Source: a virus (Duplodnaviria; Heunggongvirae; Uroviricota; Caudoviricetes). From it: a stretch of DNA of 19,775 nt. The stretch is from the IMG/VR virus record IMGVR_UViG_2563366917_000005; one strand, 5' to 3'. The notes beneath the pieces were generated by a model. It did not search any database, had not been told where the DNA came from, and saw only the letters and a program-made list of their open reading frames with translations. The stretch's first letter is position 1, and the number at the start of each line of letters is the position of its first letter. Below, in pieces: positions 1 to 18,495 of this stretch. The position numbers and the translations under genes were made by a program.

Positions 1-618
1 GAAGAACTCCTGTGGCGCGAGAGTGAAAAACTGCGTCGTTATAAAAAGGAGGCCCGGTTGCCAGTTGCCAAAACGCTAAGCGAATACGACTTCAGTCAGG
101 TGCCGGAACTGAATGGAGCTCAGTTCCGGCAACTCTGTGAAACGACAGACTGGGTTGATGCAGGAGAAAACGTTCTGCTGTTCGGAGCCAGCGGGTTGGG
201 GAAAAGCCATCTGGCGGCAGCGATCGTGGATGGCGTAGTAGGCCAGGGCTACCGGGCCCGGTTCTACAGCGCAGGAGAGTTGTTGCAGGAACTACGTAAA
301 GCCAGAGCGCAGTTGAAACTGAATGAGCTGCTACTGAAACTGGATCGCTACCGGGTGATAGTGGTGGATGATCTTGGCTATGTCAAACGCGACAGCGCCG
401 AAACGGGAGTACTGTTCGAGTTAATAGCGCATCGCTATGAACGTGGGAGCCTGGTGATAACCAGTAACCATCCGTTCAGCATGTGGGGCAGCATCTTCGT
501 GGATGAGACTATGGCGGTGGCGGCGGCAGACCGGCTGATCCATCACGGATATATGTTCGAACTGAAAGGTGAAAGCTACAGGAAAAAGACAGCGAAGGCA
601 GTAACAAGCGCGACTTGA
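1..618 (+). CDS. istB: IstB-like AAA+ ATPase helper of IS21-family transposition (5' partial, frame open to window start)
   Basis: Translation has a Walker A motif (GASGLGKSHLA), a Walker B-like VIVVDDLGY, and the characteristic IstB C-terminus (DRLIHHG...ELKGESYR). The frame is open from position 1 (EELLWRESEKLRRYKKEARL...). Confidence 0.8.
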   Translation, partial: EELLWRESEKLRRYKKEARLPVAKTLSEYDFSQVPELNGAQFRQLCETTDWVDAGENVLLFGASGLGKSHLAAAIVDGVVGQGYRARFYSAGELLQELRKARAQLKLNELLLKLDRYRVIVVDDLGYVKRDSAETGVLFELIAHRYERGSLVITSNHPFSMWGSIFVDETMAVAAADRLIHHGYMFELKGESYRKKTAKAVTSAT

Positions 619-675
619 TGTCGCACTGAAGGGTGCGGCCAGTATAGTTGGCGCGAGTCGGCAAAACTAGTTGAC
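1..675 (+). mobile_element. IS21-family insertion sequence, istB-side end; the element continues beyond the window start
   Basis: Contains the 3' part of an IstB-like gene; the reading frame of a gpD-like head gene begins abruptly at about 675 just downstream, which places the IS terminus at roughly 660-680. Exact terminus and inverted repeat not determined. Confidence 0.6.
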
Positions 676-788
676 GTCTAATAGGGACCTTTGCGACGGA
701 GGCAATCCGCTGGCCTGAAAGTGTGGATGAACACAAAAAGGCCAACGCCTTTACCGGCAGTGCCCTGAGTCACGCGGCGCTGCCGTAA
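675..788 (+). pseudogene. D: 3' remnant (~37 codons) of a lambda gpD-like head decoration protein gene, truncated at its 5' side by the IS
   Basis: Frame translation ...GTFATEAIRWPESVDEHKKANAFTGSALSHAALP* resembles the C-terminus of lambda gpD as I remember it (...[32 protein letters not shown]). An in-frame stop lies at 672-674 and there is no N-terminal part upstream. Confidence 0.55.
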
Positions 789-796
789 CACGTTAT

Positions 797-830
797 CAGG
801 CCACCGCGTTGGCCTGACTGATTTCTTAAT
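797..830 (+). terminator. Hairpin between the D remnant and E (caggcca/tggcctg stem) followed by a U-rich stretch; possible attenuator
   Basis: 7 bp inverted repeat at 797-803 and 810-816 with a 6 nt loop, then auuucuuaau. Confidence 0.25.
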
Positions 831-845
831 GAAAGGAACTGATTT

Positions 846-1874
846 ATGGGATTGTTTACGACCCGCCAGTTACTCGGTTATACCGAACAAAAAGTTAAAT
901 TCCGTGCGCTGTTTCTGGAGCTGTTTTTCCGCCGTACGGTGAATTTCCACACCGAAGAGGTGATGCTGGACAAAATTACCGGAAAAACGCCGGTGGCGGC
1001 CTATGTCTCCCCGATCGTTGAAGGAAAAGTGCTTCGCCATCGCGGTGGTGAAACCCGCGTGTTACGTCCGGGCTACGTCAAGCCCAAACACGAATTTAAT
1101 TACCAGCAGGCGGTTGAGCGCCTTCCTGGTGAAGATCCGGCTCAGCTGAACGACCCGGCCTACCGTCGTCTGCGTATCATTACCGATAACCTCAAACAGG
1201 AAGAGCACGCCATTGTCCAGGTGGAAGAAATGCAGGCGGTGAATGCCGTGCTGTATGGCAAATACACCATGGAAGGGGAACAGTTTGACACGGTCGAGGT
1301 GGATTTCGGACGCTCTGAAGGAAATAACATTGAGCAGGCCGACGGTAAAAAATGGTCTGAGCAGGACCGTGATACGTTTGATCCGACGCATGATATTGAC
1401 CTTTACTGCGATCAGGCCAGCGGTCTTGTAAATATTGCCATTATGGACGGTACGGTCTGGCGTCTGCTGAATGGCTTTAAGCTGTTCCGCGAAAAACTGG
1501 ATACCCGTCGCGGCTCAAATTCACAACTCGAAACGGCAGTGAAAGACCTGGGAGCGGTGGTGTCTTTCAAAGGGTATTACGGTGATCTGGCCATTGTGGT
1601 GGCGAAAACGTCTTATGTGGCAGACGACGGTACCGAAAAACGTTATCTGCCGGTGGGCACACTGGTCCTGGGGAATACGGCAGCAGAGGGCATTCGTTGC
1701 TATGGTGCCATTCAGGATGCGCAGGCGTTGTCCGAAGGTGTGGTGGCCTCTTCCCGTTATCCGAAACACTGGCTGACTGTGGGCGATCCGGCCCGTGAAT
1801 TCACCATGACGCAGTCCGCACCGCTGATGGTGCTGCCGGATCCGGATGAGTTTGTGGTGGTGCAGGTGAAATAA
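846..1874 (+). CDS. E: Major capsid protein, lambda gpE family
   Basis: 342 aa; near co-linear similarity to lambda gpE by recollection (PIVEGKV, PGYVKPKHE, KLDTRRGSNS.LETAVKDLG, GDPAREFTM.QSAPLM, DPDEFV motifs). Confidence 0.95.
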   Translation: MGLFTTRQLLGYTEQKVKFRALFLELFFRRTVNFHTEEVMLDKITGKTPVAAYVSPIVEGKVLRHRGGETRVLRPGYVKPKHEFNYQQAVERLPGEDPAQLNDPAYRRLRIITDNLKQEEHAIVQVEEMQAVNAVLYGKYTMEGEQFDTVEVDFGRSEGNNIEQADGKKWSEQDRDTFDPTHDIDLYCDQASGLVNIAIMDGTVWRLLNGFKLFREKLDTRRGSNSQLETAVKDLGAVVSFKGYYGDLAIVVAKTSYVADDGTEKRYLPVGTLVLGNTAAEGIRCYGAIQDAQALSEGVVASSRYPKHWLTVGDPAREFTMTQSAPLMVLPDPDEFVVVQVK

Positions 1875-1882
1875 TCCGTGAG

Positions 1883-1914
1883 CGGGGGCGAAATGCCCCC
1901 GTGTCTTTTTTCAC
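1883..1914 (+). terminator. Intrinsic terminator-like hairpin directly after E (cgggggc/gcccccg stem, then gucuuuuuu)
   Basis: 7 bp GC stem at 1883-1889 and 1895-1901 with a 5 nt loop, followed by a T-run at 1906-1911. It lies between the E stop and the FI ribosome-binding site. Confidence 0.4.
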
Positions 1915-1925
1915 AGGAGGCTGAG

Positions 1926-2309
1926 ATGGCAACAAAAGAAGAAAATCTGAATCGTCTTCGTCAACTGGCTGGCCTGCTGGGGCGCGAGGCGGATATGTCG
2001 GGGAGTGCTGCGGATATTGCGCAACGTGTGTCTGAGTGGGAAGAGGAGCTTGCTGTTTCCCCGGAGGGCATTATGCACTCTGATGAGAGCGGGGCTGATC
2101 AAAATCACACAGACGATGGTGAGCAGTTGAACAACACGGATGCTCCGGATGATGTTAAAGCCGTCCGGGTACGGAAGTGCCTGCAAGTAATGGGGTATTG
2201 CCCGGAGACAGGTCGTCCCGTTGAGCTGGCGTTACGGGGTATGCGTGTTCTGGTGCCATCATCACTGGCAACGGCCATGATACAGCACGGAACGGCTGAA
2301 TATGCGTGA
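1926..2309 (+). CDS. FI: DNA-packaging / head assembly protein, gpFI-like
   Basis: Position after E; RBS aggagg at 1914-1919; N-terminus MATKEENLNRLRQL... and acidic middle resemble lambda FI. Start chosen at the ATG downstream of the hairpin rather than the ORF-track start 1878. Confidence 0.8.
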   Translation: MATKEENLNRLRQLAGLLGREADMSGSAADIAQRVSEWEEELAVSPEGIMHSDESGADQNHTDDGEQLNNTDAPDDVKAVRVRKCLQVMGYCPETGRPVELALRGMRVLVPSSLATAMIQHGTAEYA

Positions 2310-2655
2310 TTTTCAGAATGCCTTTGATGCTGCCCTCGCCGGGGTAGACAGTACGATCGTTGAAGTGATGGGACTCTGTGCGCAGTTCACCTCGGGGGCA
2401 CAGTGTGGCAGCGAAGTTCAGGGGGTTTTTGACGATCCGGAGTCGCTGGGGGTTGCCGGTGGCGGGGTCCGTATTGAAGGAAGCTGCCCGTCATTATTTG
2501 TGCGGACGGATACGGTTCGTGCCGTGCGGCGTGGTGACACGCTGACCATTAATGGTGAGACATTCTGGGTGGATCGTGTTTCTCCGGATGACGGGGGCAG
2601 CTGTTATCTCTGGCTCAACCGTGGGCAACCACCCGCAGTTAACCGGCGACGATAA
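2302..2655 (+). CDS. FII: Head-tail joining protein, gpFII-like
   Basis: 117 aa; GVFDDPE, PSLFVRTD, RRGDTLTI, FWVDRVSPDDGGSC.LWL.RG.PPAVNRRR match lambda FII by recollection; overlaps the FI stop. Confidence 0.9.
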   Translation: MRDFQNAFDAALAGVDSTIVEVMGLCAQFTSGAQCGSEVQGVFDDPESLGVAGGGVRIEGSCPSLFVRTDTVRAVRRGDTLTINGETFWVDRVSPDDGGSCYLWLNRGQPPAVNRRR

Positions 2656-2669
2656 ACGCAGGGTGAATT

Positions 2670-3245
2670 ATGGCGATAAAAGGGCTTGATCAGGCGATTG
2701 ACAATCTGAGCCGGGTTCGTAAAAACGCCATTCCGGCTGCTTCTGCAATGACCATTAACCGCGTGGCCATAACGGCGATTAATCAGTCTTCGTCACAGGT
2801 TGCCCGGGAAACCAGGGTGAGACGGAAACTGGTAAAGGAACGGTCCAGACTGAAACGGGCGACGGTCAGAAATCCGAATGCCAGAATTATCGTTAACCGC
2901 GGTGATCTCCCTGTGATTAAGCTGGGGATCAGAATGCTGGGGCGTCGTCCGGACAGCATACTCAAAGCCGGTCAGCATCGTTATCAGCGGGCATTTATCC
3001 AGCGATTAAATAATGGGCGCTGGCATGTTATGCAACGTCTTCCCCAGGCCAGATATGAGGAGGGCAATGACGACAAGGGAAGGAAAAAGCGTAATCGCCT
3101 TCCCATTCAGGTGGTGAAAATCCCGATGGCGGCCCCACTGAAACAGGCATTTGATGAGAATGTTGACCGTATCCGGCGTGAACGCCTGCCTAAAGAACTG
3201 GCATACGCGCTGAAACAACAACTGAGGATTGCGATAAAACGATGA
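2670..3245 (+). CDS. Z: Tail completion protein, gpZ-like
   Basis: 191 aa; MAIKGL.QA..NLSR, QVARETRVRRKLVKER.RLKRATV, NRGDLPVIKLG, NGRWHVMQR, ERIRRERLPKEL as in lambda Z. Confidence 0.9.
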   Translation: MAIKGLDQAIDNLSRVRKNAIPAASAMTINRVAITAINQSSSQVARETRVRRKLVKERSRLKRATVRNPNARIIVNRGDLPVIKLGIRMLGRRPDSILKAGQHRYQRAFIQRLNNGRWHVMQRLPQARYEEGNDDKGRKKRNRLPIQVVKIPMAAPLKQAFDENVDRIRRERLPKELAYALKQQLRIAIKR

Positions 3246-3637
3246 AACACACTGACATTCGTGCCGCAGTGCTGGATGCACTCGAGCAGCATGAACACGG
3301 GGCGACGCTGTTTGATGGTCGCCCCGTTGTTTTTGACGAAGAGGATTTTCCTGCGATCGCGGTTTATCTGACGGATGCAGAGTATACCGGTGAAGAGCTG
3401 GATGCAGATACCTGGCGGGCCACGCTGCATATTGAGGTGTTTTTACCGGCACAGGTACCGGATTCAGAGCTTGATCAGTGGATGGAAAGCCGGATTTACC
3501 CGGCGATGACCGCGATCCCGGCACTGGCAGGACTGATTACCACGATGGTTACGCAGGGCTATGAGTATCGTCGTGATGACGATATGGCGTTATGGAGTTC
3601 TGCAGATCTGACTTATTCCATTACATACGAGATGTGA
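3242..3637 (+). CDS. U: Tail tube terminator protein, gpU-like
   Basis: 131 aa; [63 protein letters not shown]; ATGA overlap with Z. Confidence 0.9.
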
Positions 3638-3644
3638 GGACGAT

Positions 3645-4397
3645 ATGGCAACACCAAATCCCCTTGAGCCGGTAAAAGGTGCCGGTACCACTCTGTGGGT
3701 TTACAACGGCAAGGGTGATGCTTATGCAAACCCGTTGTCAGACGATGACTGGCAGCGACTGGCTAAGGTGAAGGATCTGACGCCGGGCGAGATGACGGCA
3801 GAATCCTACGATGATAACTACCTGGATGATGAAGACGCGGACTGGACCGCGACCGGGCAGGGGCAGAAATCTGCAGGTGATACCAGTTTTACGCTGGCCT
3901 GGAAACCGGGAGAGGAAGGCCAGAAAGGGCTTATAGGCTGGTTTGAAAGCGGCGATGTCCGGGCCTATAAAATCCGTTTTCCGAATGGCACGGTGGATGT
4001 GTTTCGTGGCTGGGTCAGCAGTATCGGTAAGGCCGTGACGGCGAAAGAAGTGATCACCCGCACGGTGAAAGTCACTAACGTGGGTAAACCTTCTGTAGCG
4101 GAAGAACGCAGCAAAATTACGCCGGTCAGTGCGATTAAGGTGACGCCGACATCCGGTACGGTGGCAAAAGGGAAAACAACCACCCTGACGGTTTCTTTTG
4201 AGCCGGAAAGTGCAACCGACAAGACGTTCAGAGCGGTTTCCGCCGATCCGTCGAAAGCCACCATTAGTGTGAAAGATATGACAATTACGGTAAACGGCGT
4301 GGCGACAGGTAAGGTGCAGATCCCTGTGGTGAGCGGAAATGGTCAGTTCGCCGCAGTGGCTGAAGTCACCGTTACTGAAGCGGGCGCTGCAGGGTAA
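3645..4397 (+). CDS. V: Major tail tube protein, gpV-like, with C-terminal Ig-like domain
   Basis: 250 aa; [105 protein letters not shown]; the C-terminal ~90 aa look like a Big_2-type Ig-like fold. Confidence 0.95.
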
Positions 4398-4410
4398 ACG
4401 GAGGTAATAC

Positions 4411-4842
4411 ATGTTTCTGAAAACAGAACAATTTGAATATAACGGTGTGTCTGTCACGCTTTCCGAATTGTCTGCGCTGCAGCGTATCGAGCATCTTGCC
4501 CTCCTGAAACGGCGTGCAGAACAGGCAGAATCCTGCGGCAACCTGCAGGTAAGCGTGGAAGATCTCGTCAGAACCGGCGCGTTTCTGGTGGCGATGTCCC
4601 TGTGGCATAACCATCCACAGAAAACGCAGTCACCGTCAATGAATGAGGCCGTGATGAAGATAGAGCAGGAAGTGCTCACCACCTGGCCTGCCGATGCCAT
4701 TGCCCGGGCGGAAGACGTGGTGTTGTGCCTGTCCGGGATGATCGAAGCTGTTCGTCCGGATACTGATATTACTGAAGTGGCGAAAAATAACACGCTGACT
4801 GATGATGATTTTTCTGCGGGAAAGTCTTCGACGGCGAGCTGA
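4411..4842 (+). CDS. G: Tail assembly chaperone, gpG-like
   Basis: 143 aa; MFLKTE.FE.NGV.VTLSELSALQRIEHLAL.KR.AEQAES, AFLVAMSLWHNHPQKTQ.PSMNEA as in lambda G. Confidence 0.9.
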   Translation: MFLKTEQFEYNGVSVTLSELSALQRIEHLALLKRRAEQAESCGNLQVSVEDLVRTGAFLVAMSLWHNHPQKTQSPSMNEAVMKIEQEVLTTWPADAIARAEDVVLCLSGMIEAVRPDTDITEVAKNNTLTDDDFSAGKSSTAS

Positions 4843-5282
4843 ACTTTGCCCTCAGACTGGCGCGTGAGATGGGGAGACCCGACTGGCGCGCCATGCTTGC
4901 CGGGATGACATCCACCGAATATGCCGACTGGCACCGTTTTTACCGCACGCATTATTTTCAGGATACCCAGCTGGATATGCATTTTTCCGGGCTGACGTAC
5001 GCTGTACTCAGCCTGTTTTTTTGCGATCCGGATATGCATCCCTCTGATTTCAGTCTGCTTGTCCCCCGGCATGAGGAAGAGCAGGTGGAGAGGCCGGATG
5101 AGGACAAAATGCTGATGCAGAAAGCGGCAGGACTTGCCGGAGGCGTCCGGTTCGGTGGGGACGGAGGGCGCGATATTTTATCGTCTGCGGATGTGGCGGA
5201 TGTCATGGTGGATGATGCCGCATTAATGATGGCTTCAGCGGGGATTCCGGGAGGTGTGAGATATGTCCCAGCCGGTTGGTGA
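4411..5282 (+). CDS. GT: Tail assembly chaperone G-T fusion made by programmed -1 ribosomal frameshift at 4818-4824; T portion runs 4824..5282 in the -1 frame
   Basis: The -1 frame is open from the slippery site and reads GKVFDGELNFALRLAREMGRPDWRAMLAGMTSTEYADWHRFY..., matching lambda gpT. There is no independent start or RBS for T. Confidence 0.8.
4818..4824 (+). other. -1 programmed frameshift slippery heptamer G GGA AAG near the 3' end of G
   Basis: Heptamer X XXY YYZ in the G frame (codons GGA 4819-4821, AAG 4822-4824), identical to the lambda G/T slippery sequence. Confidence 0.8.
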
Positions 5283-7836
5283 TCTTGTTATTGACCTGAG
5301 TCTGGATGCTGTCCGTTTCGATGAGCAGATGAGCCGGGTAAGGCGTCATTTTTCAGGTCTGGATACCGACGCCAGAAAAACCGCCAGTGCTGTTGAACAG
5401 GGCCTGAGCCGCCAGGCGCTGGCTGCACAAAAAGCCGGGATTTCCGTCGGGCAGTATAAAGCGGCCATGCGAACCCTGCCCGCACAGTTTACGGATATCG
5501 CCACGCAGCTTGCCGGTGGTCAGAATCCCTGGCTGATCCTGCTGCAACAGGGCGGTCAGGTGAAGGACTCCTTCGGCGGGATGATCCCCATGTTCAGGGG
5601 GCTCGCCGGTGCGATCACCCTGCCGATGGTCGGGGTCACCTCGCTGGCGGTGGCGACAGGTGCGCTGGTGTACGCCTGGTACCAGGGAGATTCCACGCTT
5701 TCAGCGTTTAATAAAACCCTGGTTCTTTCCGGTAATCAGTCCGGACTGACTGCCGATCGTATGCTGACTCTCTCAAGAGCCGGGCAGGCAGCAGGGCTGA
5801 CGTTTAACCAGGCGAGAGAGTCACTGGCAGCCCTGGTGAATGCCGGTGTGCGTGGTGGTGAACAGTTTGATGCCATCAACCAGAGTGTCGCGCGTTTTGC
5901 GTCTGCATCCGGTGTGGAGGTGGATAAAGTCGCTGAAGCCTTCGGGAAGCTGACCACTGACCCGACGTCGGGACTGATGGCGATGGCGCGCCAGTTCCGT
6001 AACGTGACGGCAGAGCAGATTGCGTATGTTGCACAGCTGCAGCGTTCCGGAGACGAGGCCGGTGCATTGCAGGCGGCGAACGATATCGCCACGAAAGGCT
6101 TTGATGAGCAGACCCGTCGCCTGAAAGAAAACATGGGAACACTGGAGACCTGGGCGGATAAAACAGGGAAGGCATTCAAATCGATGTGGGATGCCATTCT
6201 GGATATCGGTCGTCCGGAATCCTCAGCGGATATGCTCGCCAGTGCGCAGAAGGCATTTGATGAGGCGGATAAAAAATGGCAGTGGTACCAGAGCCGGAGC
6301 CAGCGCCGGGGAAAAACCGCCTCTTTTCGTGCCAACCTTCAGGGCGCATGGGATGACCGGGAAAATGCCCGTCTGGGTCTGGCAGCGGCAACGCTGCAGT
6401 CGGATATGGAAAAAGCCGGTGAACTGGCGGCAAGGGACAGGGCTGAGCGTGAGTCGTCACAGCTGAAGTATACCGGAGAGGCGCAGAAGGCGTATGAGCG
6501 CCTGCTGACGCCACTGGAGAAATATACCGCCCGGCAGGAAGAGCTGAATAAGGCCCTGAAAGACGGGAAAATCCTGCAGGCGGATTACAACACGCTGATG
6601 GCGTCGGCAAAAAAGGATTATGAGTCGACGCAGAAAAAGCCGTCCGGTGTGAAGGTGTCTGCCGGTGAGCGCCAGGAAGACCAGGCGCATGCAGCCCTGC
6701 TGGCGCTTGAAACCGAGCTCAGGACGCTGGAAAAACACAGCGGTGTGAATGAGAAAATCAGCCAGCAGCGCCGGGATTTATGGGAAGCGGAAAATCAGTA
6801 TGTGGTCCTGAAAGAGGCCGCCACGAAACGGCAGTTATCTGAGCAGGAAAAATCCCTGCTGGCCCATGAGAAAGAGACGCTGGAGTACAAACGCCAGCTG
6901 GCTGAGCTGGGCGACAAGATTGAACACCAGAAACGGCTGAATGAGCTGGCACAGCAGGCGGCGCGGTTTGAACAGCAGCAGAGCGCGAAGCAGGCGGCAA
7001 TCAGCGCAAAAGCCCGCGGACTCACCGACCGTCAGGCGCAGCGGGAGTCGGAAGAGCAGCGCCTTCGTGAGGTGTACGGTGATAATCCGGCTGCGCTGGC
7101 GAAGGCCACATCTGCACTGAAGAACACCTGGTCTGCGGAGGAGCAGCTTCGTGGAAGCTGGATGGCCGGGATGAAGTCCGGCTGGGGCGAGTGGGCGGAA
7201 AGTGCGACGGACAGTTTTTCGCAGGTTAAAAACGCGGCCACGCAGACCTTTGACGGTATTGCACAGAATATGGCAGCGATGCTGACCGGCAGCGAACAGA
7301 ACTGGCGTGGTTTCACCCGTTCTGTGCTGTCCATGCTGACAGAGATTTTTCTGAAGCAGGCGATGGTGGGGATAGTCGGGAGTATCGGCAGCGCCATTGG
7401 CGGGGCTGTTGGTGGCGGCGCATCCGCGTCAGGCGGTACAGCCATTCAGGCTGCGGCGGCGAACTTCCATTTCGCGACCGGGAGATTTACGGGGACGGGG
7501 GGTAAATATGAACCTGCGGGGATTGTTCATCGCGGGGAGTTTGTCTTCACGAAGGAGGCGACCAGCCGGATTGGTGTCGGCAATCTGTACCGCCTGATGC
7601 GGGGCTATGCGGAAGGTGGTTATGTCGGCGGTGCCGGAAGTCCGGCGCAGATGCGGCGGGCGGAAGGCATTAATTTTAATCAGAACAATCACGTGGTGAT
7701 TCAGAACGACGGCCCCAACGGGCGGGCAGGGCCGCAGCTGATGAAAGCGGTGTATGAGATGGCCCGCAAGGGGGCACAGGATGAACTCCGGCTGCAGTTG
7801 CGTGATGGCGGTATGTTATCAGGGAGCGGTGGATGA
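5263..7836 (+). CDS. H: Tail tape measure protein, gpH-like
   Basis: 857 aa; long stretches near-identical to lambda H by recollection (VGDLV.DLSLDA.RFDEQM.RVRRHFSG, GGQVKDSFGGMIPMFRGLAGAITLPMVG, C-terminal GIVHRGEFVFTKEATSRIGVGNLYRLMRGYA); overlaps the T stop. Confidence 0.95.
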   Translation: MSQPVGDLVIDLSLDAVRFDEQMSRVRRHFSGLDTDARKTASAVEQGLSRQALAAQKAGISVGQYKAAMRTLPAQFTDIATQLAGGQNPWLILLQQGGQVKDSFGGMIPMFRGLAGAITLPMVGVTSLAVATGALVYAWYQGDSTLSAFNKTLVLSGNQSGLTADRMLTLSRAGQAAGLTFNQARESLAALVNAGVRGGEQFDAINQSVARFASASGVEVDKVAEAFGKLTTDPTSGLMAMARQFRNVTAEQIAYVAQLQRSGDEAGALQAANDIATKGFDEQTRRLKENMGTLETWADKTGKAFKSMWDAILDIGRPESSADMLASAQKAFDEADKKWQWYQSRSQRRGKTASFRANLQGAWDDRENARLGLAAATLQSDMEKAGELAARDRAERESSQLKYTGEAQKAYERLLTPLEKYTARQEELNKALKDGKILQADYNTLMASAKKDYESTQKKPSGVKVSAGERQEDQAHAALLALETELRTLEKHSGVNEKISQQRRDLWEAENQYVVLKEAATKRQLSEQEKSLLAHEKETLEYKRQLAELGDKIEHQKRLNELAQQAARFEQQQSAKQAAISAKARGLTDRQAQRESEEQRLREVYGDNPAALAKATSALKNTWSAEEQLRGSWMAGMKSGWGEWAESATDSFSQVKNAATQTFDGIAQNMAAMLTGSEQNWRGFTRSVLSMLTEIFLKQAMVGIVGSIGSAIGGAVGGGASASGGTAIQAAAANFHFATGRFTGTGGKYEPAGIVHRGEFVFTKEATSRIGVGNLYRLMRGYAEGGYVGGAGSPAQMRRAEGINFNQNNHVVIQNDGPNGRAGPQLMKAVYEMARKGAQDELRLQLRDGGMLSGSGG

Positions 7837-8162
7837 AAACCTTTCGCTGGAAAGTGAAGCCGGATATGGAGGTGAACTCGCAGCCATCGGTGCGTGAAGT
7901 GCGTTTTGGTGACGGGTACTCACAGCGTATGGCGGCAGGGCTGAATGCTGACCTGAAAACATACAGGGTGACGCTTTCCGTGACCCGGGAGGAGGCCCGG
8001 CATCTGGAAGCGTTCCTGGCAGAGCACGGTGGCTGGAAGGCATTTTTGTGGAAGCCACCCTATGCATACCGGCAGATAAAGGTGACCTGTGCCGGGTGGT
8101 CTGCGCGGGTCGGGATGTTGCGCGTTGAGTTCAGCGCGGAGTTTAAGCAGGTGGTGAACTGA
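7833..8162 (+). CDS. M: Minor tail protein, gpM-like
   Basis: 109 aa; MKTFRWKVKP, VRFGDGYSQR, RQIKVTCA.WS.RV.MLRVEFSAEF.QVVN; ATGA overlap with H. Confidence 0.9.
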   Translation: MKTFRWKVKPDMEVNSQPSVREVRFGDGYSQRMAAGLNADLKTYRVTLSVTREEARHLEAFLAEHGGWKAFLWKPPYAYRQIKVTCAGWSARVGMLRVEFSAEFKQVVN

Positions 8163-8860
8163 TGCAGGATATTCGAGAAGAAAGTCTGAACGAGTCGGTT
8201 AAGTCAGAGCAGTCACCGCGGGTGGTACTCTGGGAAATCGACCTGACGGTACAGGGTGGTGAGCGGTATTTTTTCTGTAATGAGCTGAATGAAAAAGGGG
8301 AGCCGGTCACCTGGCAGGGGCGTAAGTATGAGGCATACCCGATTGACGGCAGCGGCTTTGAGATGAACGGCCGGGGCAGCAGTGCCAGACCGTCGCTGAC
8401 GGTGTCCAATCTGTTCGGTCTGGTCACCGGGATGGCGGAAGACCTGCAGAGTCTGGTGGGGGCCACGGTGGTCCGCCGCCGGGTGTATGCCCGTTTTCTG
8501 GATGCGGTGAATTTCGTTGCGGGCAATCCGGAGGCGGACCCGGAGCAGGAGCTGAGTGACCGCTGGGTGGTGGAGCAGATGTCGCAGCTGACAGCCATGA
8601 CGGCCTCGTTTGTGCTGGCTACACCGACCGAGACGGACGGGGCGCTGTTTCCCGGTCGCATCATGCTGGCGAACACCTGTATGTGGGATTACCGGGGAGA
8701 TGAATGCGGGTATAACGGTCCTGCGGTGGCGGATGAGTTCGACAACCCCACCACGGATATCCGTAAGGACAGATGCAGCAAGTGCATGCGCGGGTGTGAA
8801 CTGCGCAGGAATGTCGGCAATTTTGGCGGTTTCCTTTCCATTAATAAACTTTCGCAGTAA
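8162..8860 (+). CDS. L: Minor tail (tail tip) protein, gpL-like, with C-terminal Cys cluster
   Basis: 232 aa; MQDIR.E.LNE, VVLWEIDLT, GGERYFFCNE.NEKGEPVTWQGR.Y, PGRIMLANTC.W.YRGDECGY.GPAVADE, C-terminal CSKC...C. Confidence 0.9.
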   Translation: MQDIREESLNESVKSEQSPRVVLWEIDLTVQGGERYFFCNELNEKGEPVTWQGRKYEAYPIDGSGFEMNGRGSSARPSLTVSNLFGLVTGMAEDLQSLVGATVVRRRVYARFLDAVNFVAGNPEADPEQELSDRWVVEQMSQLTAMTASFVLATPTETDGALFPGRIMLANTCMWDYRGDECGYNGPAVADEFDNPTTDIRKDRCSKCMRGCELRRNVGNFGGFLSINKLSQ

Positions 8861-8870
8861 ATCCCGGTTT

Positions 8871-9614
8871 ATGACACAGACTGAATCAGCGATTCTGGCG
8901 CATGCCCGGCGGTGTGCGCCTGCGGAGTCGTGCGGCTTCGTGATAAGCACGCCGGAGGGGGAGTGGTATATCCCTTGTGTGAATATTTCTGCAGAGCCGG
9001 AGGCGTATTTTCGTATCGCACCGGAAGACTGGCTGCGGGCAGAGATGCAGGGGGAGATTGTGGCACTGGTCCACAGTCATCCCGGTGGGCTGCCCTGGCT
9101 GAGCGAGGCTGACCGGCGGCTGCAGATAAAAAGCGCACTGCCCTGGTGGCTGGTCTGCCGGGGTGACATTCACAAATTCCGCTGCGTGCCGCACCTGACG
9201 GGACGGCGCTTTGAGCACGGGGTGACGGACTGTTACACCCTGTTCCGGGATGCATACCATCTGGCGGGGACTGAAATGCCGGATTTTCATCGCGAGGATG
9301 ACTGGTGGCGCCACGGTCAGAACCTTTACCTGGACAATATGGCGGTCACCGGCTTTTACCGGGTGCCCCTGTCCTCTGCACAGGCGGGCGATATTCTGCT
9401 GTGCTGCTTTGGTGCTTCGGTACCGAACCATGCCGCCATTTACTGCGGCAACGGTGAGCTGCTTCACCATCTGCCTGAACAACTGAGTAAACGGGAGAGG
9501 TATTCCGAAAAATGGCAACGACGAACGCATTCTGTCTGGCGTCACCGCCACTGGCACGCATCTGCCTTCACGGGGATTTGCAACGATTTGGCCGCCGCCT
9601 CAGCCTGTATGTGA
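8871..9614 (+). CDS. K: Tail tip assembly protein, gpK-like (JAMM/MPN+ and NlpC/P60-like domains)
   Basis: Start at the ATG at 8871 (MTQTESAILAHARRCAPAESCGFV...), not the ORF-track upstream extension. JAMM motif H-x-H-x7-S-x2-D is present (VHSHPGGLPWLSEAD), and DCYTLF...H suggests a Cys-His NlpC/P60-type segment. Strong lambda K similarity. Confidence 0.9.
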   Translation: MTQTESAILAHARRCAPAESCGFVISTPEGEWYIPCVNISAEPEAYFRIAPEDWLRAEMQGEIVALVHSHPGGLPWLSEADRRLQIKSALPWWLVCRGDIHKFRCVPHLTGRRFEHGVTDCYTLFRDAYHLAGTEMPDFHREDDWWRHGQNLYLDNMAVTGFYRVPLSSAQAGDILLCCFGASVPNHAAIYCGNGELLHHLPEQLSKRERYSEKWQRRTHSVWRHRHWHASAFTGICNDLAAASACM

Positions 9615-10192
9615 ACACGGCAGCGGAAGCCATTCGCGCCCTGTCGATGCAGATGCCGGGCTTTCGCCGTCAGATGAACGAAGGCTGGTACCAGATACGT
9701 ATTGCCGGTGATGACACGGCACCGGAGGCGGTGTATGCCCGTCTTCACGAACAGCTGGGTGAGGGAACGGTCATCCACATTGTGCCGCGACTGGCCGGGG
9801 CCGGAAAGGGTGGACTGCAGATTGTGCTGGGGGCGGCAGCCATCGTGGGCTCTTTCTTCACGGCCGGAGGCTCGATGGCGTTATGGGGTACAGCCCTGAG
9901 TGCCGGTGGTTTTTCTGCCACCACGATGCTGTTTTCACTGGGTGCCAGCATGATACTGGGCGGAGTGGCCCAGATGCTGGCCCCGAAGGCAAAAACACCG
10001 GATTACCGCGCAACGGATAACGGCAGACAGAACACGTACTTTTCCTCGCTGGATAACATGATTGCCCAGGGGAACCCGATGCCGGTGCCTTACGGGGAAA
10101 TGCTGGTTGGCTCCCGCCGTATATCCCAGGACATCAGCACCCGTGATGAAGGCGGGGGCGGAAAGGTCGTGGTTATCGGGCGGCAGGGGTAA
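9512..10192 (+). CDS. I: Tail tip assembly protein, gpI-like
   Basis: 226 aa; ARICL.GDLQRFGRR, W.YQ.RIAG, VIHIVPR.AGA, QIVLGAAAI.GSFFTAG, FSLGASM.LGGVAQMLAPKA.TP, DNG.QNTYFSSLDNM.AQGN; begins about 100 nt inside the 3' end of K in another frame, as in lambda. Confidence 0.9.
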   Translation: MATTNAFCLASPPLARICLHGDLQRFGRRLSLYVNTAAEAIRALSMQMPGFRRQMNEGWYQIRIAGDDTAPEAVYARLHEQLGEGTVIHIVPRLAGAGKGGLQIVLGAAAIVGSFFTAGGSMALWGTALSAGGFSATTMLFSLGASMILGGVAQMLAPKAKTPDYRATDNGRQNTYFSSLDNMIAQGNPMPVPYGEMLVGSRRISQDISTRDEGGGGKVVVIGRQG

Positions 10193-10238
10193 AAAGAATA
10201 AAAAAATCCCGCAGTGATCGCGGACAGGAACTGCGGGA
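10193..10238 (-). terminator. Minus-strand intrinsic terminator abutting the I stop codon (ucccgcag/cugcggga stem, then UUUUUUUAUUCUUU on the minus strand)
   Basis: 8 bp inverted repeat at 10207-10214 and 10231-10238 with a 16 nt loop. On the minus strand the hairpin is followed by a run of U's (the + strand A-tract 10193-10206). On the + strand the downstream sequence is not U-rich, so it should not stop late transcription into J. Confidence 0.5.
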
Positions 10239-10296
10239 GAGTTACGAAGATTAAGTGTAAGGAATTATTCTTATATCACGACAAAAAAATTAACGC
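10195..10296 (-). ncRNA. Candidate ~100 nt small RNA (minus strand) in the I-J intergenic insert; identity unknown
   Basis: Bounded by a perfect TATAAT -10 (minus strand, + coordinates 10303-10308) and the minus-strand terminator at 10193-10238. It has no plausible ORF and is AU-rich with a 3' hairpin plus U-tail, the usual layout of Hfq-type sRNAs. Ends are predicted, not measured. Confidence 0.3.
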
Positions 10297-10302
10297 AGAG
10301 AA

Positions 10303-10332
10303 ATTATACGCGCCACAGTCAGTGTGTGAAAA
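10303..10332 (-). promoter_or_regulatory. Putative sigma70 promoter on the minus strand: -35 TTTTCA, 18 nt spacer, -10 TATAAT
   Basis: Reverse complement of 10303-10308 is TATAAT; reverse complement of 10327-10332 is TTTTCA. It points toward the terminator at 10193-10238. Confidence 0.3.
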
Positions 10333-10403
10333 TGTGAAGATATTCAGAATTTTTATGCCATTACCGGTTTTAACCAACAGGATTATCGGTGGGCATGAAA
10401 GAA

Positions 10404-10438
10404 AACCCCGGTATCTGCTGATACCGGGGTTTCTCTTT
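10404..10438. terminator. Strong bidirectional intrinsic terminator hairpin in the I-J intergenic region (12 bp perfect stem aaccccgguauc/gauaccgggguu, 4 nt loop)
   Basis: Perfect inverted repeat at 10404-10415 and 10420-10431. It is followed on the + strand by UUCUCUUU and on the minus strand by UUCUUUC. Confidence 0.55.
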
Positions 10439-10535
10439 AGCATGGCAGAAATGTGTTTCATGCTTTTCGGGCGAAGGATATCCGACTTCTGTACGGAATG
10501 GCAAGTGGCGGTTAATTTATTCAGGGGAAGGCTGT

Positions 10536-13500
10536 ATGGGAAAAGGTGGCGGTAAGGCACACACGCCTCGTGAGGCGAAGGATAATCTCAAATCCACGCA
10601 GATGATGAGTGTGATTGATGCGATTGGTGAGGGACCGATAGAAGGTCCGGTGAAGGGACTGCAGAGTATTCTGGTGAACAAAACCCCGCTGACGGACACG
10701 GACGGTAATCCCGTGATACACGGTGTGACCGCGGTCTGGCGTGCCGGGGAGCAGGAGCAGACACCACCGGAAGGCTTTGAGTCCTCCGGAGCTGAAACCG
10801 GACTGGGCGTGGAAGTGACGAAGGCAAAACCGGTGACGCGCACCATTACGTCCGCGAACATTGACCGCCTGCGGGTTACCTTCGGGGTGCAGTCACTGGT
10901 GGAGACCACCTCAAAGGGTGACCGTAACCCGGCAACCGTCCGCCTGCTGATTCAGTTACAGCGTAACGGTAACTGGGTGACAGAAAAGGACGTCACCATT
11001 AACGGCAAGACCACCTCACAGTTCCTGGCCTCGGTGATTCTGGATAATCTGCCTCCCCGGCCCTTTAACATCCGGATGGTCAGGGAGACGGCGGACAGCA
11101 CCACGGACCAGCTGCAGAATAAGACGCTGTGGTCGTCATACACCGAAATCATCGATGTGAAACAGTGCTACCCGAACACGGCCATTGTGGGGCTGCAGGT
11201 GGATGCGGAGCAGTTCGGCGGCCAGCAGATGACGGTGAACTACCATATCCGCGGTCGTATCATCCAGGTGCCGTCAAACTATGACCCGGAAAAACGCACG
11301 TACAGTGGTATCTGGGACGGCAGTCTGAAACCGGCATACAGCAACAACCCGGCCTGGTGCCTGTGGGACATGCTGACTCACCCGCGCTACGGCATGGGAA
11401 AACGTCTGGGGGCGGCGGATGTGGACAAGTGGGCGCTGTATGCCATCGGGCAGTACTGCGATCAGACGGTCCCGGATGGTTTCGGGGGGACCGAGCCGCG
11501 GATGACCTTTAATGCGTACCTGGCACAACAGCGTAAGGCGTGGGACGTTCTCAGTGATTTCTGCTCTGCGATGCGCTGTATGCCGGTATGGAACGGTCAG
11601 ACGCTGACGTTCGTTCAGGACCGCCCGTCGGATGTGGTGTGGCCGTACACCAACAGCGATGTGGTGGTGGATGATAACGGCGTGGGATTCCGCTACAGCT
11701 TCAGTGCCCTGAAGGACCGGCACACGGCGGTGGAGGTGAATTACACCGACCCGCAGAACGGCTGGCAGACCTCCACGGAACTGGTGGAAGACCCGGAAGC
11801 CATACTGCGCTACGGACGCAACCTGCTGAAGATGGACGCGTTCGGCTGTACCAGCCGCGGTCAGGCCCACCGTGCCGGACTGTGGGTGATAAAGACCGAA
11901 CTGCTGGAAACGCAGACGGTGGATTTCACGCTCGGGTCTCAGGGGCTGCGGCACACACCCGGTGACATCATTGAAATCTGTGATAACGACTATGCCGGGA
12001 CCCTGACCGGCGGACGTGTCCTGTCCATTGATGCTGCCACCCGCACCCTGACGCTGGACCGTGAAGTGACACTTCCGGAGACCGGTGCCGCCACGGTGAA
12101 CCTGATTAACGGCAGCGGTAAGCCAGTGAGTGTGGACATCACCGAACACCCCGCGCCGGACCGGATACAGGTCAGTACCCTGCCTGATGGTGTGGAGACA
12201 TACGGGGTGTGGGGACTCTCCCTGCCGTCACTGCGCCGTCGCCTGTTCCGCTGTGTCTCCGTCCGGGAAAACACGGACGGCACCTTTGCCATCACGGCGG
12301 TGCAGCACGTACCGGAAAAAGAAGCCATCGTGGATAACGGTGCCCGCTTTGAGCCGCAGTCAGGTTCCCTGAACAGCGTCATCCCACCGGCAGTGCAGCA
12401 CCTGACGGTGGAGGTGAGCGCAGCTGACGGCCAGTATCTGGCGCAGGCGAAATGGGACACGCCGCGGGTGGTGAAGGGTGTGCGCTTCAGTCTGCGCCTG
12501 ACCAGTGGTAAGGGAACGGATGCCAGACTGGTGACCACCGCTATCACCGCAGACACGGAGCACCGTTTCAGCGGCCTGCCGCTCGGGGAATACACCCTGA
12601 CGGTGCGGGCGATAAACAGCTATGGCCAGCAGGGTGAACCTGCCACCACCACCTTCCGGATTGCCGCACCGGCAGCACCGTCGCGGATTGAGCTGACGCC
12701 GGGCTATTTTCAGATAACCGCCACGCCGCATCTTGCCGTTTATGACCCGACGGTACAGTTTGAGTTCTGGTTCTCGGAAAAGCGGATTGCGGATATCAGG
12801 CAGGTTGAAACCGCAGCCCGCTATCTTGGCTCGGCGCTGTACTGGATAGCTGCCAGTATCAATATCAAACCGGGCCATGATTATTATTTTTATATCCGCA
12901 GTGTGAATACTGTTGGCAAATCGGCATTCGTGGAGGCTGTCGGTCGGGCGAGCGATGATGCGGAAGGTTACCTGGATTTTTTCAAAGGAGAAATCGGGAA
13001 AACACATCTGGCCCAGGAGCTGTGGACGCAGATTGATAACGGTCAGCTTGCGCCGGACCTGGCTGAAATCAGGACGTCCATTACGAATGTCAGCAATGAA
13101 ATCACGCAGACCGTCAATAAAAAACTGGAAAATCAGAGTGCGGCAATCCAGCAGATACAGAAAGTTCAGGTTGATACAAATAATAACCTGAACAGCATGT
13201 GGGCCGTGAAACTGCAGCAGATGCAGGACGGACGCCTTTATATTGCGGGTATCGGTGCCGGTATTGAGAATACGCCAGCAGGAATGCAGAGTCAGGTGCT
13301 GCTGGCGGCAGACAGGATTGCGATGATTAATCCTGCGAATGGCAACACAAAGCCGATGTTTGTTGGTCAGGGCGATCAGATATTTATGAATGAAGTGTTC
13401 CTGAAATATCTGACGGCTCCCACCATTACCAGCGGCGGTAATCCTCCGGCATTTTCCCTGACACCGGACGGGCGGCTGACGGCGAAAAATGCCGATATCA

Positions 13501-14009
13501 GCGGTAACGTGAATGCGAACTCCGGGACGCTCAACAACGTCACGATTAACGAGAACTGTCGGGTTCTGGGAAAATTGTCCGCGAACCAGATTGAAGGCGA
13601 TCTCGTTAAAACAGTGGGCAAAGCTTTCCCCCGGGACTCCCGTGCACCGGAGCGGTGGCCATCAGGAACCATTACCGTCAGGGTTTATGACGATCAGCCG
13701 TTTGACCGGCAGATTGTTATTCCGGCGGTGGCATTCAGCGGCGCTAAACATGAGAAAGAGCATACTGATATTTACTCCTCATGCCGTCTGATAGTGCGGA
13801 AAAACGGTGCTGAAATTTATAACCGTACCGCGCTGGATAATACGCTGATTTACAGTGGTGTTATTGATATGCCTGCCGGTCACGGTCACATGACACTGGA
13901 GTTTTCGGTGTCAGCATGGCTGGTAAATAACTGGTATCCCACAGCAAGTATCAGCGATTTGCTGGTTGTGGTGATGAAGAAAGCCACTGCAGGCATCACG
14001 ATTAGCTGA
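10536..14009 (+). CDS. J: Central tail fibre / host specificity protein, gpJ-like
   Basis: 1157 aa; N-terminus [22 protein letters not shown] and long blocks match lambda J by recollection; RBS ggggaagg upstream. A central patch (about aa 820-890) and the last ~100 aa diverge from lambda. Confidence 0.95.
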
Positions 14010-14028
14010 ATTTTATAACCCAGATACG

Positions 14029-14056
14029 GGCGCCAGAAATGGCGCCTTTTTTATTG
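14029..14056 (+). terminator. Intrinsic terminator after J (ggcgcca/uggcgcc stem, GAAA loop, UUUUUUAUU)
   Basis: Inverted repeat at 14030-14036 and 14041-14047 followed by a T-run at 14048-14056. Confidence 0.6.
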
Positions 14057-14076
14057 CAGAAAAGCGAGAGGTAATT

Positions 14077-14676
14077 ATGCGTAAATTATGTGCTGTTATT
14101 TTGTCCGCAGTAGTCTGGCAGGTCGCCGCTGCTACGCCAGCGAGTGCAGCAGAACATCAGTCCACGCTGAGCGCGGGGTATCTCCATGCCTCGACGAACG
14201 TTCCCGGTAGTGATGATCTGAACGGGATTAACGTGAAATACCGTTATGAGTTTACGGACGCGCTGGGGCTGATTACGTCCTTCAGTTATGCCAATGCTGA
14301 GGATGAGCAAAAAACGCGCTACAGCGATACCCGCTGGCATGAAGATTCCGTGCGTAACCGCTGGTTCAGCGTGATGGCGGGGCCGTCTGTACGCGTGAAT
14401 GAATGGTTCAGCGCGTATGCGATGGTGGGTGTGGCTTACAGCCGTGTGTCGACTTTCTCCGGGGATTATCTCCGCGTAACTGACAACAAGGGGAAAACGC
14501 ACGATGTGCTGACCGGAAGTGATGACGGTCGCCACAGCAACACGTCTCTGGCGTGGGGGGCTGGCGTGCAGTTTAATCCGACCGAATCCGTGACCATTGA
14601 CCTTGCTTATGAAGGTTCCGGTAGTGGCGACTGGCGAACGGATGCATTTATTGTTGGTATCGGATACCGTTTCTGA
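14077..14676 (+). CDS. lom: Lom-like outer-membrane beta-barrel protein (Ail/Lom/PagC family), a lysogenic-conversion moron
   Basis: 199 aa; signal-peptide-like N-terminus (MRKLCAVILSAVVWQVAAATPASA), GINVKYRYE.TD, WFSAYAM.GVA.SR, C-terminal DLAYEGSGSGDWRTD.FIVG.GY.F as in lambda Lom; RBS gagagg. Confidence 0.9.
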   Translation: MRKLCAVILSAVVWQVAAATPASAAEHQSTLSAGYLHASTNVPGSDDLNGINVKYRYEFTDALGLITSFSYANAEDEQKTRYSDTRWHEDSVRNRWFSVMAGPSVRVNEWFSAYAMVGVAYSRVSTFSGDYLRVTDNKGKTHDVLTGSDDGRHSNTSLAWGAGVQFNPTESVTIDLAYEGSGSGDWRTDAFIVGIGYRF

Positions 14677-14781
14677 CAACAGACGCCGATTTATCTTCTG
14701 TAAATATTGTTATGATACGCAGGTTCATCCACCTTATGGGGTGAACTGCGTTTGAGGAAACGTAAAGTTACACTGTCCTGA

Positions 14782-14816
14782 AGCCCGTGGCGTCACTGCT
14801 GCGGGCTTTTTTTATT
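14782..14816 (+). terminator. Terminator-like hairpin after lom (gcccg...cgggc stem, then UUUUUUUAUU)
   Basis: Inverted repeat at 14783-14787 and 14802-14806 with an internal structured loop, then a T-run at 14807-14816. Confidence 0.45.
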
Positions 14817-14827
14817 GGTGGAAAAGT

Positions 14828-17800: not shown

Positions 17801-17857
17801 AACGCGGAAAACACCGTCAAAAACATCGCATTTAACTATATTGTGAGGCTTGCATAA
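14828..17857 (+). CDS. stf: Side tail fibre protein, Stf-like (1009 aa; expanded Ala/Ser shaft, central tail-fibre repeat module, His-motif C-terminal region)
   Basis: N-terminus [22 protein letters not shown]...[14 protein letters not shown] and C-terminus ...[31 protein letters not shown] match lambda Stf by recollection. It contains three copies of the TATK(I/L)(K/Q)TAR.I.GV.FDGSA.I repeat and several (S/A)H(T/A/G)H(S/T) motifs. Confidence 0.9.
15200..16200 (+). repeat. Imperfect in-frame tandem repeats encoding the Ala/Ser/Thr-rich Stf shaft (recurring AAKTSETNA and SASxA units)
   Basis: Recurring DNA units such as gcgaaaacgtcagaaacgaatgc and gcaaaaacctctgaaacaaatgc; GC-rich in both strands, which creates spurious long ORFs in other frames. 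Confidence 0.6.
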
Positions 17858-18441
17858 TGGCATTCAGAATGAGTGAACAAGCACGGACCATAAAAATTTA
17901 TAATCTGCTGGCCGGAACTAATGAATTTATTGGTGAAGGTGACGCATATATTCCGCCTCATACAGGTCTGCCAGCAAACAGTACCGATATTGCACCACCA
18001 GATATTCCTGCTGGCTTTGTGGCTGTTTTCAACAGTGATGAGGCATCGTGGCATCTCGTTGAAGACCATCGGGGTAAAACGGTTTATGACGTAGCGTCAG
18101 GGGACGAGTTATTTATTTCTGAACTCGGTCCGTTACCGGAAAATGTTACCTGGTTATCGCCGGAAGGGGAGTTTCAGAAGTGGAACGGCACAGCCTGGGT
18201 GAAGGATACGGAAGCAGAAAAACTGTTCCGGATCCGGGAGGCGGAAGAAACAAAAAACAACCTGATGCAGGTAGCCAGTGAGCATATTGCGCCGCTTCAG
18301 GATGCTGCAGATCTGGAAATTGCAACGGAGGAAGAAACCTCATTGCTGGAAGCCTGGAAAAAGTATCGGGTGTTGCTGAACCGTGTTGATACATCAACTG
18401 CACCTGATATTGAGTGGCCTACGAACCCTGTCAGGGAGTAA
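17857..18441 (+). CDS. tfa: Tail fibre assembly (chaperone) protein, Tfa-like
   Basis: 194 aa; [82 protein letters not shown]...[26 protein letters not shown], almost identical to lambda Tfa by recollection; 1 nt overlap with the stf stop. Confidence 0.9.
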
Positions 18442-18490: not shown

Positions 18491-18495
18491 GGATG

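What the first reader, a model, noticed from the sequence alone, without database searches (positions are those of the whole stretch)
1..845. IS21-family insertion truncates the head decoration gene immediately upstream of the major capsid gene
An IstB-type ATPase gene runs to position 618. About 55 bp later the frame of a gpD-like gene begins abruptly with only its C-terminal ~37 codons, followed normally by E. This means the prophage head module has been interrupted (D disrupted, and upstream terminase/portal genes displaced or lost), so the element is likely a defective prophage that still keeps an apparently intact tail, lom and fibre region. IS ends can also supply outward promoters that might drive the downstream late genes independently of Q antitermination.
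Basis: partly seen in the sequence, partly recalled or inferred. Interest (0 to 1): 0.45.

Follow-up and report, generated by a model that had tools for sequence, protein, structure and literature searches.

The report
ISEc10 insertion in prophage head-decoration gene
A common E. coli jumping gene (ISEc10) has landed inside the head-decoration gene of a lambda-like prophage. This is a real and recent event but an ordinary one, and it probably cripples the prophage.

Summary

- **IS part.** Window 1-683 is the last 683 bases of ISEc10, an IS21-family element of 2,410 bp. It holds the 3' 205 codons of istB, whose stop is at 616-618, then 65 bases of IS terminus ending ...GTTGACGTCTAATA. This stretch is base-for-base identical to full copies in other E. 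coli.
- **Phage part.** The native D-E spacer and an intact E gene (846-1874) follow.
- **Age.** Uninterrupted prophages in other strains match the window 100% from base 684 onward, so the insertion is recent. The junction occurs in none of 5,426 complete E. coli genomes and in none of three contig collections, so it looks strain-specific.
- **Source.** The window is the start of scaffold KB733359.1 of draft assembly GCA_000353145.1, which begins inside istB. istA, the left IS end, the target duplication and any 5' half of D are therefore not visible. Simple insertion versus deletion or rearrangement stays open.
- **Promoter idea.** The IS tip carries a -35-like TTGACG, but no -10 follows it in the D remnant, so an outward hybrid promoter is not supported.
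- **Downstream genes.** E through the tail-fibre genes are intact.

Verdict: an ordinary IS hit in a prophage, of low interest.

The parts
1..618 (+). 3' part of ISEc10 istB: codons 47-251 plus stop of the AAA+ helper ATPase. It is cut by the scaffold start, not by biology.
619..683 (+). ISEc10 right terminal region. The imperfect right inverted repeat covers about the last 48 nt (636-683), and the element ends ...GTTGACGTCTAATA at 683.
   Evidence: The ends of the reference copy pair at 34 of 48 positions.
671..676 (+). -35-like hexamer TTGACG facing outward, 7 nt from the IS tip. No matching -10 follows in the flank.
   Evidence: The layout is compared with IS21 as described in PMC10122671.
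684..689 (.). GGGACC, the predicted right-hand copy of a 6-bp target-site duplication. This is inferred; the left copy is not in the window.
   Evidence: other ISEc10 copies show duplications of 6, 6 and 9 bp.
684..788 (+). Remnant of the lambda-D-type head-decoration gene: codons 82-115 plus stop. It has no start codon or ribosome-binding site of its own, so it is a pseudogene fragment.
796..817 (+). Native D-E intergenic hairpin followed by a T-rich tract (terminator-like). The spacer that contains it is identical in uninterrupted relatives.
   Evidence: for the hairpin; for identity of the spacer
846..1874 (+). Intact major capsid gene of lambda E type, 342 aa.
1926..18441 (+). Intact downstream late genes: FI, FII, Z, U, V, G/T, H, M, L, K, I, J, lom, side tail fibre and tail-fibre assembly.

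Best explanation
**What it is.** A copy of ISEc10 transposed into codon 82/83 of the lambda-D-type head-decoration gene of a lambdoid prophage. In relatives this prophage sits at ompW next to the trp operon. ISEc10 is an IS21-family element of 2,410 bp carrying istA and istB. The host is the E. coli strain of draft assembly GCA_000353145.1. The IS points the same way as the late operon.

**What is shown.**
- The right IS-target junction lies exactly at the canonical IS tip.
- Both sides of the junction are identical to an IS copy and to uninterrupted prophages elsewhere.
- The C-terminal D piece has no start codon.
- E and the tail genes are intact.

**What is inferred.**
- The event was most likely a simple insertion. 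The first 83 codons of D and the genes Nu1-A-W-B-C would then lie about 2.4 kb to the left.
- D is inactivated. Without gpD, lambda-type heads cannot be stabilised around a full-length genome, so the prophage should not make stable infectious particles unless a co-resident prophage supplies D in trans.
- After induction, transcription of E and the tail genes would still come mainly from Q-antiterminated read-through across the co-oriented IS, not from an IS promoter.
For: - **IS identity.** Window 1-683 equals the 3' 683 bases of ISEc10, and the istB part hits Pfam IstB_IS21.
- **IS end.** The terminus was defined from three full copies with target duplications.
- **Junction position.** Phage homology starts at exactly 684 in every relative. 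That base is the first base of codon 82 of a 115-codon D gene.
- **Recent event.** L015, L021 and L023 are 100% identical to the window from 684 onward for 12.6-17.2 kb and carry an intact D.
- **Strain-specific.** The junction is absent from 5,426 complete genomes and from three contig collections.
- **ISEc10 is mobile today.** New insertions arose in CFT073 under drug selection (PMC7482066).
- **IS hits in prophage structural genes are common.** Other ISEc10 copies sit in or next to prophage structural genes (L002, L028), and an IS66-family element sits in a portal gene (L010).
- **Role of gpD.** gpD mechanically reinforces the expanded lambda capsid (PMC4132744).
Against: - The left half of the event is unseen, because the scaffold starts inside istB.
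- None of six predicted D(1-82/83/84)-ISEc10 fusion products, covering target duplications of 4-9 bp, is in a protein collection that does include this assembly. No such fusion appeared among 105 D homologues either. This is weak evidence that the left junction is either not assembled or not there.
- Loss of function and defectiveness are inferred, not measured.
- A second lambdoid prophage with a D-E region is present in most of the listed close relatives (places_in_record = 2) and could complement.
Confidence: 0.85

Rival explanations
1. **IS-associated deletion or rearrangement.** The ISEc10 copy, or only its 3' part, is joined on its left to unrelated DNA. The 5' part of D and the packaging and head genes Nu1-C are then deleted or moved elsewhere, leaving an E-to-tail-fibre remnant.
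For: - The scaffold ends inside the IS, so nothing contradicts this reading.
- The predicted D'-IS fusion proteins are absent from a collection that holds the assembly.
- 22 more complete-genome records match window 1-700 than match the 120-mer across IS position 1727/1728 (588 against 566). This suggests that 5'-truncated ISEc10 copies exist.
- Prophages of this family are often rearranged within D (L035, L036).
Against: - Absence of a predicted ORF from a gene-call collection is weak evidence.
- The visible junction is a canonical transposition end.
- Three of three full copies examined are simple insertions with target duplications.
- Draft scaffolds routinely break inside multi-copy IS elements. 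N-terminal IstB fragments of many lengths are on record.
Confidence: 0.22
2. **IS-driven expression.** The IS supplies an outward promoter, or istAB read-through, that expresses E and the tail, lom and fibre genes without Q.
For: - TTGACG lies 7 nt from the IS tip. IS21 carries a -35 box in its right end (PMC10122671).
- ISEc10 insertions near ampC are reported to raise AmpC expression (cited in PMC7482066).
- No terminator-like site was found on the + strand between position 400 and the hairpin at 796.
Against: - No -10-like hexamer lies at 16-18 nt spacing. The candidate hexamers are GCGACG, CGACGG and GACGGA.
- The scan found no promoter in 400-2000.
- The promoter of a single IS21 element is described as weak.
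- A 227-nt untranslated gap and a terminator-like hairpin at 796-817 lie before E.
- In CFT073, ISEc10 insertions next to lpp lowered expression.
Confidence: 0.08
3. **Assembly artefact.** The junction is a chimeric join of an IS contig to a prophage contig.
For: - The source is a draft short-read scaffold that starts in a repeat.
- The junction is found nowhere else.
Against: - The join falls exactly at the last base of the ISEc10 inverted repeat. That is the signature of transposition, not of a misjoin at shared sequence.
- The IS end and D share no homology that could cause a misjoin.
Confidence: 0.03

Closest known systems
ISEc10 (IS21 family insertion sequence of E. coli)
   Same: All 683 visible bases are identical to full copies. 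These include the istB 3' part, the right inverted repeat and the terminal ...CTAATA. RefSeq annotates the matching genes as 'IS21-like element ISEc10 family helper ATPase IstB'.
   Different: Only the right 28% of the element is visible. istA, the left end and the target duplication cannot be seen. This insertion site in D is not found in any other genome searched.
IS21 (prototype, plasmid R68.45) split promoter
   Same: ISEc10 has a -35-like TTGACG near its right tip and a -10-like GACAAT at left-end positions 8-13. This is the arrangement described for IS21, in which a strong promoter forms only at tandem IS junctions (PMC10122671).
   Different: Here the right tip abuts phage DNA with no -10, so no hybrid promoter is predicted. 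ISEc10 ends TAT...ATA. IS21 makes 5-bp target duplications in the cited study, whereas ISEc10 copies here show 6, 6 and 9 bp.
Lambda gpD (head decoration protein, Pfam PF02924) and D-deficient lambda
   Same: The parent gene is a 115-aa HDPD-family protein placed immediately upstream of an E-type capsid gene, in lambda gene order Nu1-A-W-B-C-D-E-FI.
   Different: The gene here is split. The remnant keeps only the last 34 codons. That lambda D mutants are viable only with shortened genomes is from my own knowledge (Sternberg and Weisberg 1977). It was not tested for this phage.
IS-disrupted cryptic lambdoid prophages of E. coli
   Same: An IS sits in a structural gene of a lambdoid prophage. 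The same pattern appears in L002 (ISEc10 in a portal gene), L028 (ISEc10 beside a tail-completion gene) and L010 (an IS66-family element in a portal gene).
   Different: No substitutions separate this prophage's visible part from the closest uninterrupted relatives (L015, L021, L023), so decay has only just begun.

Membership tests
IS21 family / ISEc10 | IstB-type AAA+ helper ATPase gene as the 3' gene of the element | tested here: met
   Pfam PF01695 at E=3.6e-57. The gene is 100% identical to annotated ISEc10 istB.
IS21 family / ISEc10 | istA (DDE transposase) immediately upstream of and overlapping istB | not testable with these tools
   The scaffold, and so the window, starts at IS position 1728. 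istA is present in the identical full copies L002, L028 and L029.
IS21 family / ISEc10 | Terminal inverted repeats, with the element ending at the canonical tip at the junction with target DNA | tested here: met
   The right tip ...GTTGACGTCTAATA at 683 is the same as in three full copies. Phage homology starts at 684. The inverted repeats of the reference copy pair at 34 of 48 positions.
IS21 family / ISEc10 | Short direct target-site duplication flanking the element | not testable with these tools
   The left junction is not in the window and was not found in any collection. Other copies show 6, 6 and 9 bp.
Lambda gpD head decoration protein (PF02924) | Full-length HDPD-domain ORF of about 110-115 aa upstream of the E-type capsid gene | tested here: not met
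   Only codons 82-115 remain, with no start codon. The uninterrupted parent gene meets the criterion. The feature is therefore a D pseudogene fragment.
Lambda E major capsid protein (PF03864) | Full-length Phage_cap_E domain | tested here: met
   E=3.4e-66 over residues 5-341 of 342. The protein is identical to WP_000522601.1 as annotated in relatives.
Defective (cryptic) prophage | Loss of an essential morphogenetic function, shown by failure to produce infectious particles | not testable with these tools
   Disruption of D is shown. Particle production, trans-complementation and the state of the left half of the prophage are unknown.

The most novel reading that the evidence does not exclude
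ISEc10 did not simply insert. It mediated a deletion or inversion that uncoupled an intact capsid-tail-lom-fibre module from its packaging genes. That module would then be kept as a separately expressed unit through IS read-through, for example as a source of tail-like particles or of Lom and the methyltransferase. A weaker variant is that D codons 82-83 are a recurrent breakpoint, because three unrelated rearrangements in other assemblies end within 6 bp of this junction.
Probability: 0.06. Interest if true: 0.3.

Novelty: already known. Interest (0 to 1): 0.08.

Why it matters
- **Biology.** It matters little beyond strain bookkeeping. It is a clean, datable example of the first step in prophage decay: one IS hit and no other change from the closest uninterrupted relatives.
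- **Annotation.** The prophage in GCA_000353145.1 should be called 'questionable/defective' by prophage predictors.
- **Assembly caveat.** A window that starts at a draft-scaffold end inside a repeat cannot show whether upstream genes were lost.

Tried and rejected
1. **Junction in public data.** I searched complete E. coli genomes and the genome, metagenome and viral contig collections. Nothing was found.
2. **Source via window proteins.** Exact look-ups of E, Z and H returned only contexts with an intact D. Two minus-strand ORFs that span the junction are not on record.
3. **Source via the partial IstB product.** This look-up worked. It showed that the window is a scaffold start.
4. **Left junction.**
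   - The ISEc10 left-end 34-mer in genome contigs gave one hit, L030. It is an unrelated insertion in an island integrase gene, on an E. coli contig binned into a 'Collinsella' MAG.
   - Six predicted D'-IS fusion proteins are not in the collection.
   - A homology search with the fusion found only other kinds of broken D.
   - Contigs ending at IstB codon 46 (P0106) did not include the source assembly.
5. **Why the scaffold starts at IS position 1728.**
   - No split ISEc10 copies occur at that point in complete genomes.
   - There is no SNP at that position between the active lineage and the old kpsF-linked lineage. Position 1728 does lie inside their 238-bp stretch of perfect identity, 1651-1888.
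   - The cause is left unexplained. It is probably repeat-induced.
6. **Promoter.** The consensus scan was negative.

Full report
**Observation.** The + strand of window 1-618 is an open frame that runs from the first base to a stop at 616-618. Its 205-residue product hits Pfam IstB_IS21 at E=3.6e-57.
- A megablast of window 1-700 against 5,426 complete E. coli genomes hit 551 genomes. The matching genes are annotated 'IS21-like element ISEc10 family helper ATPase IstB'. The matches end at window 684-687 depending on chance bases in each flank.
- A full copy inside a prophage portal gene (L002) and two more (L028, L029) define the element. It is 2,410 bp, runs TATGAGACG...CGTCTAATA, carries istA and istB, and has imperfect terminal inverted repeats that pair at 34 of 48 positions. 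Its target duplications are GGCCAT, GGCAAG and GGGTTGCAC.
- Window 1-683 is identical to the last 683 bases of that copy. The IS therefore ends at 683, which is 65 bases after the istB stop.

**The phage side.** Window 640-2300 matches hundreds of E. coli prophages at up to 100% identity, and every match starts at window 684. The annotated features are head decoration protein, major capsid protein and FI.
- In the uninterrupted relative L001 the D-type gene is 348 bp (8758-9105). Window 684 corresponds to L001 9001, the first base of codon 82.
- The window therefore keeps codons 82-115 plus the stop (684-788), the native 57-bp spacer and an intact E gene (846-1874; Phage_cap_E at E=3e-66). The intact D protein is a Pfam HDPD (lambda gpD) member.
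- The remnant has no in-frame start near its 5' end.

**Context and age.**
- The rest of the window (684-19775) matches five poultry and APEC genomes almost perfectly. Against APEC E19035 it differs by 6 SNPs and one in-frame 3-bp indel.
- In E19035 the prophage lies beside an ompW fragment next to yciE and the trp operon. It has the full lambda late order Nu1-A-W-B-C-D-E-FI-FII-Z-U-V-G-T-H-M-L-K-I-J-lom-stf-tfa. All of E through tfa are full length in the window.
- Three other uninterrupted prophages are 100% identical to the window from 684 onward over 12.6-17.2 kb, and all have the same intact D. They are L015 (OZ038694.1), L021 (GCA_014082745.1) and L023 (a gut metagenome).
- Both the IS part and the phage part are thus unmutated relative to other copies, so the insertion is evolutionarily very recent.
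- A query spanning the junction found no complete genome that covers it. The 33-mer across the junction is absent from the genome, metagenome and viral contig collections.

**Where the window comes from, and what that limits.**
- An exact look-up of the partial IstB product found scaffold KB733359.1 (1.8 Mb) of NCBI draft assembly GCA_000353145.1 at coordinates 1-10618, with the same gene layout. That stretch is identical to the window. The window is therefore the very beginning of a draft scaffold that starts inside istB.
- istA, the left IS end, the target duplication and the 5' part of D cannot be on this scaffold. 'Displaced or lost' cannot be decided from the window.
- I tried to find the left junction indirectly.
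  - The ISEc10 left-end 34-mer occurs once in the representative-genome collection. It is in an unrelated island integrase gene, on an E. coli contig binned into a 'Collinsella' MAG.
  - Six predicted D'-ISEc10 fusion proteins, covering duplications of 4-9 bp, are not in the 15-billion-protein collection that includes this assembly.
  - A homology search found no such fusion.
  - Contigs that end at IstB codon 46 belong to other samples.
- This is weak negative evidence. Draft assemblies routinely break in this IS, and IstB fragments of many lengths are on record.

**Mechanism.**
- Shown: the right junction sits exactly at the IS tip, which is the signature of transposition and not of misassembly. 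D is split.
- Inferred: simple insertion is the most likely event. All three full copies examined are simple insertions, and ISEc10 transposes readily in CFT073 (PMC7482066).
- On consequences, gpD reinforces the expanded lambda capsid (PMC4132744). From my own knowledge, lambda D mutants survive only with shortened genomes (Sternberg and Weisberg 1977). A D-null prophage that has also gained 2.4 kb should therefore not yield stable particles, unless D is supplied in trans.
- Trans supply is possible. Most of the listed close relatives carry a second D-E region (places_in_record = 2).
- The IS is co-oriented with the late operon, so Q-modified RNA polymerase should read through it (inference).

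**The promoter idea.**
- IS21 carries a -35 box in its right end and a -10 box in its left end. These form a strong promoter only at tandem junctions, and the promoter of a single element is weak (PMC10122671).
- ISEc10 has the same layout: TTGACG lies 7 nt from the right tip (window 671-676) and GACAAT lies at left-end positions 8-13.
- In the window the hexamers 16-18 nt downstream of TTGACG are GCGACG, CGACGG and GACGGA. None is -10-like. The scan found no promoter-like site in 400-2000, and it found a terminator-like hairpin at 796-817 before E.
- An IS-flank hybrid promoter is therefore not supported. Weak read-through from istAB cannot be excluded.

**Comparison and novelty.** The feature is a known IS (ISEc10, IS21 family) in a known gene type (lambda D) of a common E. 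coli prophage. IS elements in or beside structural genes of other prophages turned up in passing (L002, L010, L028). Only the particular site is new. Novelty is 'already known', and interest is low.

**Side observations.**
- Other assemblies carry D genes broken at codons 82-83 by non-IS events:
  - a D-E deletion at a GACC microhomology;
  - a D-FI deletion;
  - an inversion with a portal gene.
- Another cluster of breaks lies at codon 66.
- Contigs from many assemblies end or start at ISEc10 position 1727-1729. No split copy occurs there in complete genomes, and no SNP lies there. The position is inside a 238-bp stretch (1651-1888) that is identical between the active lineage and an old, degenerate kpsF-linked copy. 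That identity may be why assemblies break there. This remains unexplained.

Noticed in passing
window 1 (scaffold start); L031-L034 and L037-L042: Contigs from several unrelated assemblies start at ISEc10 position 1727/1728 or end at 1727-1729. Complete genomes show no split copy there and no SNP there. The point lies inside a 238-bp stretch (IS 1651-1888) that is identical between the active ISEc10 lineage and an old degenerate copy next to kpsF. IstB fragments of many other lengths are also on record, so this may be sampling.
   Followed up: partly
D gene codons 82-83 (equivalent to window 684-689); L035 about 4245, L036 about 4245, protein P0002: Three unrelated rearrangements in other assemblies break the D gene within 6 bp of this IS junction. 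They are a D-E deletion at a GACC microhomology, a D-FI deletion and an inversion with a portal gene. A second cluster of broken D variants ends at codon 66. This could be a fragile spot, a homology boundary or assembly chimeras.
   Followed up: partly
L030 (CBCSNQ010000031.1, 20,484 bp): A contig of a GTDB representative MAG labelled 'uncultured Collinsella sp.' is 100% E. coli genomic-island DNA over its first 2.9 kb and ends in 55 bp of ISEc10. This looks like bin contamination.
   Followed up: partly
L043 (NZ_CP080118.1, next to kpsF); Nissle 1917 and ATCC 25922 hits: An old ISEc10 lineage is fixed beside the capsule locus. It is 98.8% identical to the active copy and has an internal stop in istB. 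A separate 5' remnant that ends near IS position 1691 occurs in Nissle 1917, ATCC 25922 and other genomes. Both are extra repeats that confuse short-read assembly of active copies.
   Followed up: partly
window 10214-10555 (+): A 113-aa ORF (GTG start) fills the 343-bp gap between tail genes I and J. Nothing is annotated there in the RefSeq relative (L013). A gene of about 112 aa with no Pfam hit is called at the equivalent place in L007.
   Followed up: no
window 18496-19164 (-): A class I SAM-dependent methyltransferase gene lies on the opposite strand just after the tail-fibre assembly gene. It looks like a moron-type cargo gene and has two SNPs relative to APEC E19035.
   Followed up: no
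window 18283-18475 and 19332-19525: A repeat of about 216 bp at about 90% identity. It is the 3' end of the tail-fibre assembly gene duplicated as a downstream remnant, which is annotated as a partial tail-fibre assembly gene in relatives.
   Followed up: no
L028 about 874 and 3283: One ISEc10 copy is flanked by a 9-bp direct repeat (GGGTTGCAC), unlike the 6 bp seen at two other copies. The duplication length of this IS may vary.
   Followed up: no
L015 1-2000 (OZ038694.1): In one prophage that is 100% identical to the window, transposase genes replace the lysis region directly upstream of Nu1. Some members of this prophage lineage were therefore already degraded on the left side.
   Followed up: no
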